Source of the DNA: a virus
Taxonomy: Duplodnaviria; Heunggongvirae; Uroviricota; Caudoviricetes
Virus record (IMG/VR): IMGVR_UViG_2531839027_000011
Length of the DNA stretch: 16,154 bases
Direction: 5' to 3' (one strand)
Shown one piece after another: positions 9,001-12,000 of this stretch (positions are counted from its first letter, which is position 1; the number at the start of each line of letters is the position of its first letter). Position numbers: made by a program.

Positions 9001-12000
9001 ACCAAGTCCCTGCAACGCCTGAAGGCCGATGTTATTGCGACCTGAACGCTCCATTTCGTTGTTCTGGCGAATATAGGCCAACGCCTCACTTACATCACTT
9101 GCCTTTGGCGCATTTGAGTTTTGCCCACCGATACCAGCAAGAAAACCGCCTGAGTTGATTCCTTGTTGCCAAGTAGCCATATTCCCACCTTAAAACAATG
9201 ATCCAAGACCACCGATAACACCGCCAGCAAGAGCACCAATACCAGTCCCAATAACAGGAACTGCACTACCAATCATTGCACCTGATGCGGCCCCACCAAT
9301 GGCACCTGTAGCAAAACTCTGTAGGCCTGAAGGCTTATTCGCATTTGCTGCCGATGCTGCCGCCTGCTGTTGATACAATTGGCTGACATTGTTAGCGTAG
9401 TTCTGTCCGGCGTTTGCCTGACCTGTAAGAGCACCAAGGCCGATATTTGCCAGATTGTTGTAGTTGTTCATCTGACCTGACAGCCAGTTTTGACCGAGTG
9501 TAGGTGCGATTGCTGCTAACTGGTTTCCTGTTGCTGTAGAGCCTAATCCACCCGTTGCCTCTGCTGCTGCCAGACTCTGATAGCGCGCCTGCCCTGCAAG
9601 GTCTTTATACTGCTGAGAGTTGTAATACTGGTTAAGCGCCTGACCTTGCCCCTGAAGAGAGGAAAGATTCTGCAACTGTGATACGTACTGCTGAGCGAGT
9701 GGCGTGAACGGTGCAAGGTTTTGCATGTTCGTCTGCCACATTTCACGCTGCAGTTCGATGCCCTTTTCAGTTGCGCGTGCCTGGGCTTTAGATCCGGAGT
9801 CGCTGCCGCCTTTCATATACCCATTCATGGGAAGCAATTTATTCTTGAAGCTTTCGCTAAGTACTAACATTTAATAGCTCCTCATATTTCGAACGAGGTA
9901 ATTGATAGAGGGTGATTCCTACCGGTTTTCCGTTACTCATGTACGCATCATCAAGGTGACCAACACGGGTAGCGCCAAGCAAACGGATAATTGCCCGTCC
10001 GTATTTGGTGGTGTCAGGAACCATGGTGATGCTGTTAAGGAATGGTGAGTTTTCGAGAAGCCATTTGCAGAATAATCGATGCCCTTGTAGTGCATATTCG
10101 CCACGGAATCCGGGGTCATACACCGCATGGCATTCAACAACGCTATGCCAGAAGTTACGCACTTCATGAACTCCAGCCAGCACTAATCCTTCGTAGATGC
10201 CGAGATATACCGCATCAGGCTTGATGTAGTATTTATCTCCACTGTCTACGATATTCCCCGTGTTTACCGGGTTGTTAAGGAATTCTGCAAGTTTCACCGG
10301 GTTATCGATGAGCTTTATTTCCATCACTGCTCCGCAATGATTTTGATGGTTGTGGCAGTAAACGCCGCGCCATTCGACTGAATGGTTAACGTGCTGCCAT
10401 TTGTGGCAAGAAAGCCGTCTTTATCCACGCTGAAGAACGTAGCTAACAGGATGTTGTCGGTTGTTGTTGCCGAGTTGCGACTGCTTACTAGCGTGTCAGG
10501 AACAGAACCGGAGAATGTTAGCTGCATTGACCTGTTGGCGGTTCCGCTGGGCCACGTCCCGACAATCGACAGCTTGAAGAACAAGGTTTTGTTCTCGTTG
10601 AACACAACCATCTTGTTGTTAACGGTGTCGAAGAATGGTGCCAACGTCCCGGATGACGGCGTAAGCGTTTTCAGCAGGCTAACAAGGTTGGTCGGCGCTG
10701 TCGGGATGGTTACTGATACGCCAGAGTAAACAACCTCTGACTTCTTGCGCGTAGTGGCATACTCCAGAGCATTAATGCGCGTTTCATGGTCTGAAACCTG
10801 CGATTCCAGCGACTGAACTCTGGTATCAAGCGATGCAATATCGCTTTCATTCAAGGCAATCAGTGGGTTTACGTCATGGAGTGGGCTCAACACCAGTCAG
10901 AGCCGCATGTACACGCAATAATCATGGTGAACGAAAGAAGCATTAATGGGCAAGCTGGCAAAATTGTCAGCAAATGGGTAACACTGGCAAACAATGCAAT
11001 CCCATCAAATGTTCCTCCCCAGTGGGATCTAGATTTGAAAGGTCAGCAATATTCAGAGCCTACAAAGTGTATAGGTAAACAGATTGATTACATGGCAAAG
11101 CCCGAAACTAAGTTAAATGACTTTAATAGAGAGGCGAGCAAGAGCCTATATGATTGGTCAGATGCCAACGTTTGGGGTTATTCGAATGGCTGGGCGCGGC
11201 ATGAGATAAAAAAAGAAACACTTTCTATCACTGGCTTTCATGCTGTAAGACGCATACTAAAAGCCGTTCAGGCATCAAGGAAAGACAACTACAAAGCTAA
11301 GCGACAGATACAGCGTACATTGAAACGACAAGACATAAATCGATCACCAATCACCCCGTTCCAAGCACCGTTAATTAGCAAACACGATTGGGATTTATCA
11401 GTGATAGCGGTCACCAAAGAGGCAGAGACAGAGCGCAGGGAATTACTATCCTCACAGATAATAAACTCGAACAAAGTACAAACCCACCCACTGTTAAGGA
11501 TGTTAAGAAGAGCACGAGTGAGAGCATCCAGAGCCAAAAGAGAAAGCGGAGGTTATGACCATTACTACTAGTAGTGACAGATCGTGACAAGGCGGTGCAA
11601 AAAACGACCAATAATAAGAGAGATATGCCTGCCAAACCGCCAAAAGCGCGGAGCGCGGCAAACGCCGCGAGAGGCGCAAGAAGGCGAACCTATCCATTGA
11701 AACGGTCAGAAGCGCATCGCGCTCGACGACCGAAGTCCCCACTAACACCGTTAACGAAAGATCAAAGTCTTAGAAAAAAATGACGTTTCTTTGATGGACT
11801 TCCATCCGTAAAAATCAAATTTTGAGAAAAAGTACTTATAGAAATTAATCGCTCTATAAGGATAAGTTGACGTTAGTTTAAAGTGATAAAACATTAAAGA
11901 AAAAACGTAAAATCAAATACATAAAATAAGTCACCAAGGGATCATTTTCAGAAAACAACGTCAACGTAACGTCAACTCTGTAAGAACTTTTTTGGTCACT

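What the first reader, a model, noticed from the sequence alone, without database searches (positions are those of the whole stretch)
10324..10900. Tail needle gene truncated at its 5' end at a junction with unrelated DNA
The needle-like ORF keeps the coiled coil and knob but opens only 2 codons after an in-frame stop. No gp10/gp4-type partner gene precedes it on the same strand. Instead the opposite-strand HUH-like frame runs through the junction. This marks the second internal breakpoint of the P22-like remnant, at about 10894-10900.
Basis: partly seen in the sequence, partly recalled or inferred. Interest (0 to 1): 0.4.

Follow-up and report, generated by a model that had tools for sequence, protein, structure and literature searches.

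The report
Deletion scar truncating a prophage needle gene
This is an ordinary scar of prophage decay in E. coli O157:H7: one large deletion joined the back half of a P22-like phage tail-needle gene to the back two-thirds of a neighbouring island's replication gene, leaving both dead.

Summary
ORF 10324-10893 (-) encodes the complete Sf6-type needle knob plus the last few heptads of the coiled coil. It lacks the N-terminal 106-107 residues of the 282-aa intact protein.

The breakpoint is 10852|10853, about 45 bp inside the ORF, not 10894-10900. The first 14 codons of the ORF are antisense of the neighbouring gene.

It is a rolling-circle Rep gene that lost its own first 111 codons at the same nucleotide. 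The two genes are fused head to head with no microhomology.

The window is the argW locus of E. coli O157:H7, the defective element called Sp16 in strain Sakai. Other E. coli carry the predicted precursor: a complete IntS-type P22-like prophage in tandem with a complete small argW island. Twenty-eight genomes have the tandem junction. Removing about 31.6 kb from that arrangement gives exactly the structure seen here.

The scar is present in 309 of 5,426 complete genomes, including an O55:H7 and a sorbitol-fermenting O157:H- strain. RefSeq already annotates the needle as a pseudogene missing its N-terminus.

Verdict: correct in essence, ordinary, low interest.

The parts
10324..10852 (-). Needle-derived part of the pseudogene. 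It corresponds to residues 108-282 of an intact 282-aa Sf6/Kapi1-type tail needle, plus the third base of codon 107. It holds the last few heptads of the coiled coil and the complete knob.
   Evidence: The DNA alignment to Kapi1 needle is identical or near-identical up to 10852 and unrelated beyond. 172 of 175 residues are identical to Kapi1. PF16532 matches at E 1.7e-117. PDB 4K6B and 3RWN match residues 37-189. PGAP annotates 'tail needle knob protein, incomplete, missing N-terminus' at window 10324-10860.
10853..10893 (-). The first 14 codons of the 189-aa ORF (VLSPLHDVNPLIAL). They are not needle sequence but the antisense of the truncated rep gene. Codon 14 (10854-10852) straddles the junction.
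10852..10853 (.). The deletion junction, where needle' and rep' are fused head to head. No shared bases (microhomology) are seen relative to the two reference parents.
   Evidence: The needle parent and the rep parent each mismatch the window immediately across the junction.
10853..11571 (+). A 5'-truncated rolling-circle replication initiator gene (rep'). It begins inside codon 112 of a 350-aa Rep. It keeps HUH (HVHAII, 10906-10923) and the Tyr motif (YMAK, 11089-11100) but lacks the N-terminal 111 residues and its promoter. ORF callers start it at ATG 10876 or, in PGAP, at 10924.
   Evidence: Colinear alignment to intact rep of strain 2022H048 with no indels up to the stop codon. 98.3% identity to rep of EC2257. 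The intact homologue hits Pfam PF23343 REP_ORF2-G2P at 29.8 bits against a cutoff of 27.8.
9857..10327 (-). gp14 homologue (DUF2824), an intact ORF immediately downstream of the needle fragment.
   Evidence: PF11039 at E 8e-65 and PHROG 651. It is split by IS1203 in some O157 strains.
9190..9870 (-). gp7-type ejection protein gene, an intact ORF.
   Evidence: PF25688 P22_gp7 at E 6e-90.
8044..9180 (-). In-frame fusion of the first 217 or so codons of a gp20-type ejection protein to the last 150 or so codons of an O-acetyltransferase. This is the first internal breakpoint, at about 8530|8531.
   Evidence: PF16928 covers residues 12-217 and PF01757 covers residues 230-343. PHROG 917 and 3333 also match. 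DNA homology to gp20 genes starts at 8531.
6476..6550 (+). tRNA-Arg(CCT) argW. Its 3' end is attL, containing the IntS-phage core CTGCAGGGGACACCATT (6536-6552) and the island repeat TTCGATTCCTGCAGGG (6528-6543).
   Evidence: The att core is taken from the Kapi1 preprint.
6712..7869 (+). intS, the integrase of the P22-like (Kapi1/Sf6/KplE1-type) prophage. It is intact, but its excisionase (torI) and its attR are gone.
   Evidence: PGAP annotation. About 96% DNA identity to K-12 intS. Only one copy of the IntS att core is present in the window.
15080..15101 (+). attR of the rolling-circle-Rep island: TTCGATTCCTGCAGGG-ACACCA, the 23-bp island repeat with one G missing. It is the right boundary of the composite remnant, 8,552 bp from the copy in argW.
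   Evidence: Intact islands in L004, L005 and L006 have the perfect 23-bp repeat at both ends.
11572..14945 (.). The surviving right half of the island: a conserved non-coding stretch after rep, a variable cargo slot holding a 470-aa ORF (12241-13653, -), a small ORF (13840-14016, -) and a serine recombinase (14319-14945, +).
   Evidence: Synteny with islands in strains 2022H048, CFSAN029787, EBJ003, GPEC1292 and EC2257. Resolvase Pfam hit.

Best explanation
The needle fragment is one edge of a deletion scar.

The inferred history is as follows. An IntS-type P22-like prophage, a relative of Kapi1, Sf6 and HS1, sat at the 3' end of tRNA argW. It was in tandem with a small integrative island that uses an overlapping att site. 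That island encodes its own P4-type integrase, small DNA-binding proteins, a rolling-circle HUH Rep, a cargo slot and a serine recombinase.

One illegitimate, microhomology-free deletion of roughly 31-32 kb then removed four things:
- the first 320 nt of the needle gene;
- all upstream virion, lysis and early genes of the phage, up to its excisionase and attR;
- the island's attL, integrase and regulators;
- the first 334 nt of rep.

Needle and rep are transcribed divergently, so the two 3' portions ended up head to head. A chance GTG in the antisense of rep opens the 189-aa ORF.

A separate deletion fused gp20' to oac'. The product is the immobile chimeric element known as Sp16, inherited clonally in the O55:H7/O157:H7 lineage.

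Shown: the junction position, the identity of both truncated genes, the existence of the tandem precursor architecture in other strains, the att sites, and the distribution of the scar.

Inferred: that the O157 ancestor itself carried that tandem, that a single event made the junction, and that the fragment has no function.
For: Junction.
- Needle homology ends at 10852.
- Rep homology starts at 10853, inside codon 112 of a 350-aa Rep, and then runs colinear to the stop codon.

Right-hand context.
- To the right of the junction the gene order is rep, cargo, small ORF, serine recombinase, DUF4942, attR, csc. This is the order found in intact argW islands of other strains.
- The island-type att repeat sits at 15080-15101.

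Left-hand context.
- The left boundary is an IntS-type attL. The IntS att core occurs only once in the window.
- Kapi1, Sf6, HK620 and KplE1 share this argW att core, and Kapi1 integrates with int next to yfdC/argW (Kapi1 preprint).

Predicted precursor.
- A chimeric probe of phage torI end, att and island integrase start is matched at 80% coverage or more, in one place, in 28 genomes.
- Strain EC2257 has a complete prophage with the gene order argW, intS, tailspike, gp16, gp20, gp7, gp14, needle, gp10 and so on through the early genes to torI. It is followed directly by the complete island.
- Mapping both flanks of the junction onto EC2257 gives a gap of about 31.6 kb.
- Strain GPEC1292 shows the same tandem with a different internal deletion and an intact acyltransferase next to intS.

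Distribution.
- The scar is in 309 of 5,426 complete genomes at about 100% identity.
- These include O55:H7 strain 2013C-4465 (serotype from PMC9413875) and sorbitol-fermenting O157:H- strain 493/89.

Published and database context.
- Sp16 is at argW (PMC3519850).
- Sp16 was called chimeric or highly disrupted, with defective replication, no excision and no packaging (PMC2669165).
- PGAP marks the needle as a pseudogene.
- IS1203 disrupts the adjacent gp14 homologue in some strains, which is consistent with no selection on the block.
Against: - No genome of the O55/O157 lineage with the undeleted tandem was identified, so the precursor is inferred from other lineages.
- The prophages in those lineages are only 93-96% identical in the shared genes, and their needle coiled coils differ.
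- The O157 oac' segment (7868-8530) has no near DNA match outside the lineage, so the exact parental phage is unknown.
- One event cannot be distinguished from several successive deletions ending at these two points.
- The three downstream ORFs and the 189-aa ORF are intact, and expression was not tested. The promoter and terminator scan was uninformative, with counts no different from shuffled sequence.
Confidence: 0.87

Rival explanations
1. The junction arose through several steps rather than one deletion. Examples are successive deletions, or recombination between elements that were not in simple tandem, such as the island integrating at the phage attR after partial phage decay.
For: A second, independent deletion (gp20'|oac', 8530|8531) shows the element decayed in more than one step. 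GPEC1292 shows that such tandems suffer different internal deletions.
Against: A single blunt junction with both parental sequences ending at adjacent nucleotides is most simply one event. No filler or third-party DNA lies between them.
Confidence: 0.1
2. The short ORF is a native or domesticated knob-only protein that the host expresses, for example as a receptor-blocking or exclusion factor. It would then not be a dead fragment.
For: The ORF is open for 189 codons and keeps the whole autonomous, trimer-forming knob that was crystallised alone. The downstream gp14, gp7 and fusion ORFs are also open. The scar is conserved in 309 genomes.
Against: - The conservation is clonal, at about 100% DNA identity, and says nothing about selection.
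- The start is a GTG in antisense rep DNA, with no evident promoter above chance.
- No independent short homologues exist.
- IS1203 interrupts the adjacent gene in some strains.
- PGAP calls it a pseudogene.
- Sp16 showed no activity in published assays.
Confidence: 0.02
3. The junction is an insertion rather than a deletion. On this view the island or another element inserted into the needle gene, and the missing phage genes lie elsewhere nearby. Alternatively the junction is an assembly artefact.
For: None beyond the abrupt change of homology.
Against: - Rep itself is truncated at the junction.
- No further P22-like genes occur to the right before attR and the csc genes.
- The island ends at its normal attR.
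- The identical junction is present in 309 independently assembled complete genomes.
Confidence: 0.01

Closest known systems
Sf6 gp9 / HS1 / Kapi1 tail needle (P22 gp26 family with a C-terminal knob, Pfam PF16532)
   Same: The knob and the adjoining coiled-coil segment are 98% identical to Kapi1 (172 of 175 residues) and nearly identical to the crystallised HS1 and Sf6 knobs. The downstream neighbours gp14, gp7 and gp20 are in the canonical order.
   Different: It lacks the N-terminal 106-107 residues, which are the gp10-binding plug and most of the coiled-coil shaft. It has no native start and no gp10/gp4 upstream. It is a fragment, not a working member.
Sp16, the defective prophage of E. coli O157:H7 Sakai at argW
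   Same: The location is the same (argW). The lineage is the same. The element is chimeric and disrupted, with an integrase present, replication defective, and no excision or packaging (PMC3519850, PMC2669165). The att repeats here are 8,552 bp apart.
   Different: The papers read here do not resolve its origin and call it unassignable to a phage family. This analysis resolves it into an IntS-type P22-like remnant plus the right half of a rolling-circle-Rep island. Identity with Sp16 was inferred from locus and lineage, not checked against the Sakai record.
CPS-53 / KplE1 of E. coli K-12, the IntS-TorI remnant at argW
   Same: It uses the same integrase type (about 96% DNA identity over intS), the same att core and the same tRNA, and it is another decayed prophage.
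   Different: KplE1 keeps torI and both att sites and carries different cargo. Here torI and the phage attR are deleted, and the far end belongs to another element.
Small argW integrative islands with a rolling-circle HUH Rep (Pfam PF23343 REP_ORF2-G2P-type) in other E. coli
   Same: rep' and everything to its right are syntenic with these islands, and rep' itself is 98% identical (rep plus its downstream non-coding stretch about 94%).
   Different: In O157 the island lacks attL, its integrase, its regulators and the first 111 Rep codons. Its cargo, a 470-aa protein of unknown function, differs from the HNH endonuclease, GapS6a/b, SIR2-family or other genes in the same slot elsewhere.

Membership tests
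P22-like tail needle with Sf6-type knob (gp26/gp9 family) | C-terminal knob domain (PF16532) | tested here: met
   E 1.7e-117 with full profile coverage. PDB 4K6B and 3RWN match residues 37-189.
P22-like tail needle with Sf6-type knob (gp26/gp9 family) | N-terminal gp10-binding (portal-plug) domain and a full-length trimeric coiled-coil shaft, giving about 282 aa in total | tested here: not met
   Homology starts at residue 108 of 282. The PHROG 1030 match starts at profile position 83. Intact homologues are 282-331 aa.
P22-like tail needle with Sf6-type knob (gp26/gp9 family) | Gene context gp4, gp10, needle, gp14, gp7, gp20 | tested here: inconclusive
   The downstream half is present: gp14, gp7 and gp20'. 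The upstream half is absent. The 470-aa ORF is not gp10.
HUH rolling-circle replication initiators (PF23343 REP_ORF2-G2P) | HUH metal-binding motif and catalytic Tyr motif (YxxK) | tested here: met
   HVHAII at 10906-10923 and YMAK at 11089-11100. The same motifs are at residues 130 and 191 of the intact 350-aa homologue.
HUH rolling-circle replication initiators (PF23343 REP_ORF2-G2P) | Complete nuclease domain that reaches the family's Pfam threshold | tested here: not met
   The window copy gives no Pfam hit. The intact homologue scores 29.8 bits against a cutoff of 27.8 over residues 85-152. The window copy starts at residue 112.
HUH rolling-circle replication initiators (PF23343 REP_ORF2-G2P) | Nicking and joining activity at a cognate origin | not testable with these tools
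   Only repeats (AACGTCAAC twice, plus an inverted copy) were noted in the conserved non-coding stretch after rep.
Site-specific integrative element competent for excision | Cognate integrase plus excisionase plus matching attL and attR | tested here: not met
   intS is present, but torI and the IntS-type attR are absent. The island attR is present, with a 1-nt deletion, but the island integrase and attL are absent. Published assays found no excision of Sp16.
Sp16 of O157 Sakai | Defective chimeric element at argW of the O157:H7 lineage | tested here: met
   The locus is between yfdC-argW and the csc/dsdX'-dsdA genes in O157:H7 genomes. Sp16 is placed at argW in PMC3519850. The Sakai record itself was not fetched.

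The most novel reading that the evidence does not exclude
The DNA fused to the needle fragment belongs to an apparently undescribed family of small (about 9 kb) argW-integrating elements. Their parts are a P4-type integrase, small DNA-binding proteins, a rolling-circle Rep and a serine recombinase. A single variable slot carries GapS6a/b, a SIR2-family protein, an HNH endonuclease or unknown genes in different strains. These elements could be defence-carrying satellites or mobilisable islands. On this reading, the deletion that truncated needle and rep locked one such cargo into the O55/O157 lineage. That cargo is a 470-aa protein with no known domain. It is 54-86% conserved across Gamma- and Betaproteobacteria. 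It may be a new single-gene anti-phage system.
Probability: 0.2. Interest if true: 0.45.

Novelty: already known. Interest (0 to 1): 0.12.

Why it matters
It matters little beyond bookkeeping.

It gives a nucleotide-level account of how the 'unassignable' defective element Sp16 of O157:H7 arose: two argW-integrated elements in tandem, collapsed by deletions. It also shows that neither half can move any more.

It illustrates that an ORF start next to a stop codon need not mark a rearrangement breakpoint.

The only forward-looking value is the pointer to the rolling-circle-Rep argW island family and its variable cargo slot.

Tried and rejected
- gp10 hypothesis. I tested whether the 470-aa minus-strand ORF, which has the same length as gp10, is the missing gp10. 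It shows no similarity.
- NCBIfam. It returned nothing for the Rep, the needle fragment or the cargo ORF.
- PADLOC. It returned nothing meaningful for the cargo ORF or its neighbours.
- PDB sequence searches. Searches with the intact Rep and with the cargo ORF returned nothing.
- Structure of the cargo ORF. An AlphaFold model built from a 35-sequence alignment was poor, with mean pLDDT 60. A Foldseek search against PDB gave no hit better than E 0.04 and TM about 0.1. Its function is left unknown.
- Promoter and terminator scan around the junction. Counts were no different from shuffled sequence.
- Literature. A search for 'argW + O157 + P22-like' gave no papers. Moritz & Welch 2006, on the argW-dsdCXA island, is not held in the library.
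- Short needle homologues. P0028, 189 aa at 92% identity, first looked like an independent short needle. It is the same O157 remnant with compensating frameshift errors on a 1.3-kb contig.
- Microhomology at the junction. None was found with the available parental references.
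Full report
**What is at the coordinates**

The minus-strand ORF 10324-10893 (189 aa, GTG start) is real.
- It matches the Sf6-type tail needle knob family PF16532 at E 1.7e-117. The match runs over residues 15-189 and covers the whole profile.
- It matches PHROG 1030 'tail needle knob' from profile position 83 onward.
- Residues 37-189 are almost identical to the crystallised knob domains of prophage HS1 (4K6B) and phage Sf6 (3RWN).

Three further minus-strand ORFs follow it downstream:
- a gp14 homologue (DUF2824, 9857-10327);
- a gp7-type ejection protein (9190-9870);
- a 378-aa ORF (8044-9180) that fuses the first 217 or so residues of a gp20-type ejection protein to the C-terminal 150 or so residues of an O-acetyltransferase.

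**Where the needle gene really breaks**

I aligned the region to the intact 282-aa needle gene of the argW-integrating Lederbergvirus Kapi1. Identity is near-perfect from the stop codon up to window 10852 and absent beyond it.
- Window residue 15 corresponds to Kapi1 residue 108, and 172 of the 175 shared residues are identical.
- The gene has therefore lost 320 nt, which is 106 codons plus 2 nt. That removes the gp10-binding N-terminus and most of the coiled-coil shaft.
- It keeps roughly the last three heptads of the coiled coil and the whole knob.
- The first 14 codons of the ORF (10893-10853) are not needle sequence. Codon 14 straddles the junction.

**What the 'unrelated DNA' is**

From 10853 rightwards the plus strand is colinear, without indels, with the interior and 3' end of a 350-aa gene. 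RefSeq annotates that gene in other E. coli as 'rolling circle replication-associated protein'.
- The match starts inside codon 112.
- The intact protein has HVHAII at residue 130 and YMAK at residue 191.
- The intact protein passes the Pfam threshold for PF23343 REP_ORF2-G2P.

However, the gene does not run through the junction. It is truncated there, having lost 111 codons, its start and its promoter.

The needle parent and the rep parent each mismatch the window at the first base across the junction. The join is therefore blunt, with no microhomology.

**Genomic setting**

The window is the argW locus of E. coli O157:H7. From left to right it contains:
- positions 1 to about 6400, which are 99.9% identical to the integrase end of PA28-type Stx2a phages;
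- tRNA-Arg(CCT) argW at 6476-6550;
- intS;
- the P22-like remnant;
- rep';
- a 470-aa ORF;
- a small ORF;
- a serine recombinase;
- a DUF4942 fragment;
- the csc sucrose genes and the truncated dsdX.

In other E. coli the same place holds an island of about 9 kb. Its order is argW, P4-type integrase (428 aa), hypothetical, HTH, hypothetical, MerR-like, hypothetical, Rep, variable cargo, small ORF, serine recombinase and DUF4942. It is bounded by a 23-bp direct repeat, TTCGATTCCTGCAGGGGACACCA.

The window has that repeat in argW and again at 15080-15101, with one G missing, 8,552 bp away.

The att core shared by Kapi1, Sf6, HK620 and KplE1 is AATGGTGTCCCCTGCAG (Kapi1 preprint). It occurs only once in the window, in argW.

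The composite therefore has a phage-type left end and an island-type right end. The phage attR and the island attL are missing.

**The precursor architecture exists**

I built a probe from three pieces: the Kapi1 excisionase (torI) end, the att core, and the start of the island integrase region. Twenty-eight complete genomes match it at 80% coverage or more, in one place, at about 98% identity.

Strain EC2257 has a complete P22-like prophage followed directly by the complete island:
- The prophage runs yfdC, argW, intS, tailspike, gp16, gp20, gp7, gp14, needle, gp10, gp4, capsid, portal, terminase, lysis genes, early genes and torI.
- The island then follows, starting with att and its integrase and running through to Rep and the cargo.
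- Needle and rep are divergently oriented, as required.

Mapping the two flanks of the O157 junction onto EC2257 puts them about 31.6 kb apart. Strain GPEC1292 shows the same tandem with a different internal deletion (gp20 joined to ral'). It keeps an intact acyltransferase and tailspike next to intS. That supports the inferred original order intS, oac, tailspike, and so on to gp20 behind the first breakpoint at 8530|8531.

**Mechanism**

Two elements were integrated in tandem at one tRNA. One blunt illegitimate deletion of about 31-32 kb removed the phage from needle codon 107 through its early region, excisionase and attR. The same deletion removed the island's attL, integrase, regulators and first 111 rep codons. 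A separate deletion removed the region from the gp20 C-terminus to the oac N-terminus.

The junction position, the gene identities, the att sites and the precursor architecture are shown. It is inferred that the O157 ancestor had exactly this tandem and that a single event made the junction.

**Age and spread**

The junction-spanning query is covered at 80% or more in 309 of 5,426 complete genomes, at about 100% identity. These include:
- the sorbitol-fermenting O157:H- strain 493/89;
- the O55:H7 strain 2013C-4465 (serotype from PMC9413875).

The event therefore predates the O55-to-O157 transition and has been inherited clonally.

A search of 5.8 billion proteins found 1,864 homologues. Of the 120 best hits listed, most are 282 aa and the longest 331 aa; the shorter entries (203-268 aa) are contig-end or alternative-start calls.
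- The only 188/189-aa entries are the O157 remnant itself: P0001, with 146 members, named after strain 493-89.
- P0028 is an error-laden copy of the same remnant.
- Both carry the rep-antisense N-terminus.

No native short needle gene exists.

**Function**

The fragment lacks the part that plugs the portal, and no virion genes remain.
- Its start is an accidental GTG, with no promoter signal above chance.
- PGAP annotates it as a pseudogene missing its N-terminus.
- IS1203 splits the adjacent gp14 homologue in some strains.

The element corresponds to Sp16 of strain Sakai, which lies at argW. Asadulghani et al. described Sp16 as chimeric or highly disrupted, with defective replication, and as neither excised nor packaged. 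The most likely reading is a non-functional scar (confidence about 0.87). Domestication of the knob is not excluded but has no support (about 0.02).

**Side observations**

The island's cargo slot carries different genes in different strains:
- an HNH endonuclease;
- GapS6a/b;
- a SIR2-family protein;
- unknown genes.

In O157 the slot carries a 470-aa protein.
- It has no Pfam, NCBIfam, PADLOC or PDB match.
- It has 233 homologues; the 120 best are 54-86% identical, and the named ones come from Gamma- and Betaproteobacteria.
- In a Pseudomonas genome its neighbours look like a conflict system.
- The structure model was poor and gave no fold match.

This is a lead, not a finding.

**Verdict**

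It is ordinary prophage decay that is already annotated, so interest is low.

Noticed in passing
window 1-6400: The left 6.4 kb is 99.9% identical to the integrase end of PA28-type Stx2a-converting phages. It carries an Ea22-like gene, ant, an MT-A70 methylase and int (5111-6355, -). argW therefore carries three stacked elements in this strain: the Stx2a phage, the P22-like remnant and the island remnant. It is flanked by two divergent integrase genes.
   Followed up: partly
window 2446-2535 (+): An Rfam hit to sRNA-Xcc1 (RF02221) scores 65.4 bits against a gathering threshold of 53. It lies just upstream of the antirepressor gene of the Stx phage.
   Followed up: no
window 8044-9180 (-), breakpoint about 8530|8531: An in-frame fusion ORF joins gp20' (residues 1-217) to the C-terminal 150 or so residues of an O-acetyltransferase. 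The acyltransferase-derived DNA (7868-8530) has no near match outside the O157 lineage among 5,426 E. coli genomes.
   Followed up: partly
window 12241-13653 (-): A 470-aa ORF occupies the island's variable cargo slot. The same slot holds GapS6a/b, a SIR2-family protein or an HNH endonuclease in other strains. The ORF has no domain or PADLOC hit. Its 120 best homologues are 54-86% identical, and the named ones come from Gamma- and Betaproteobacteria. The AlphaFold model was poor (pLDDT 60) and gave no fold match. It is a candidate defence gene of unknown mechanism.
   Followed up: partly
window 11572-12100: A conserved non-coding stretch follows rep, with about 94% identity to other islands up to roughly 12080-12110. 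It contains AACGTCAAC twice in tandem (11957-11976), an imperfect inverted copy (11865-11884) and A-rich 23-nt repeats (11758-11931). It may be the Rep origin or iterons.
   Followed up: no
window 15080-15101: The island attR copy has lost one G relative to the perfect 23-bp repeat of intact islands (GGGG to GGG).
   Followed up: yes
L008 (O157:H7 strain Gim1-1) 1985-3198; equivalent to window about 10240-10330: In nine of the 25 listed top hits (eight named O157:H7, one unnamed), an IS1203 (IS629-type) insertion splits the gp14/DUF2824 homologue next to the needle fragment.
   Followed up: partly
L001 16744-17991 versus L003 13682-14929 (cscB, just right of the island): The sucrose permease gene is annotated with an internal stop in O157:H7 strain TR01 but is intact in the sorbitol-fermenting O157:H- strain 493/89. 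In 493/89 the rep' fragment carries an extra frameshift.
   Followed up: no
window 4471-4866 (+): A DUF1627-type ORF of the Stx phage contains a perfect run of seven VQP tripeptide repeats (VQPVQPVQPVQPVQPVQPVQ).
   Followed up: no
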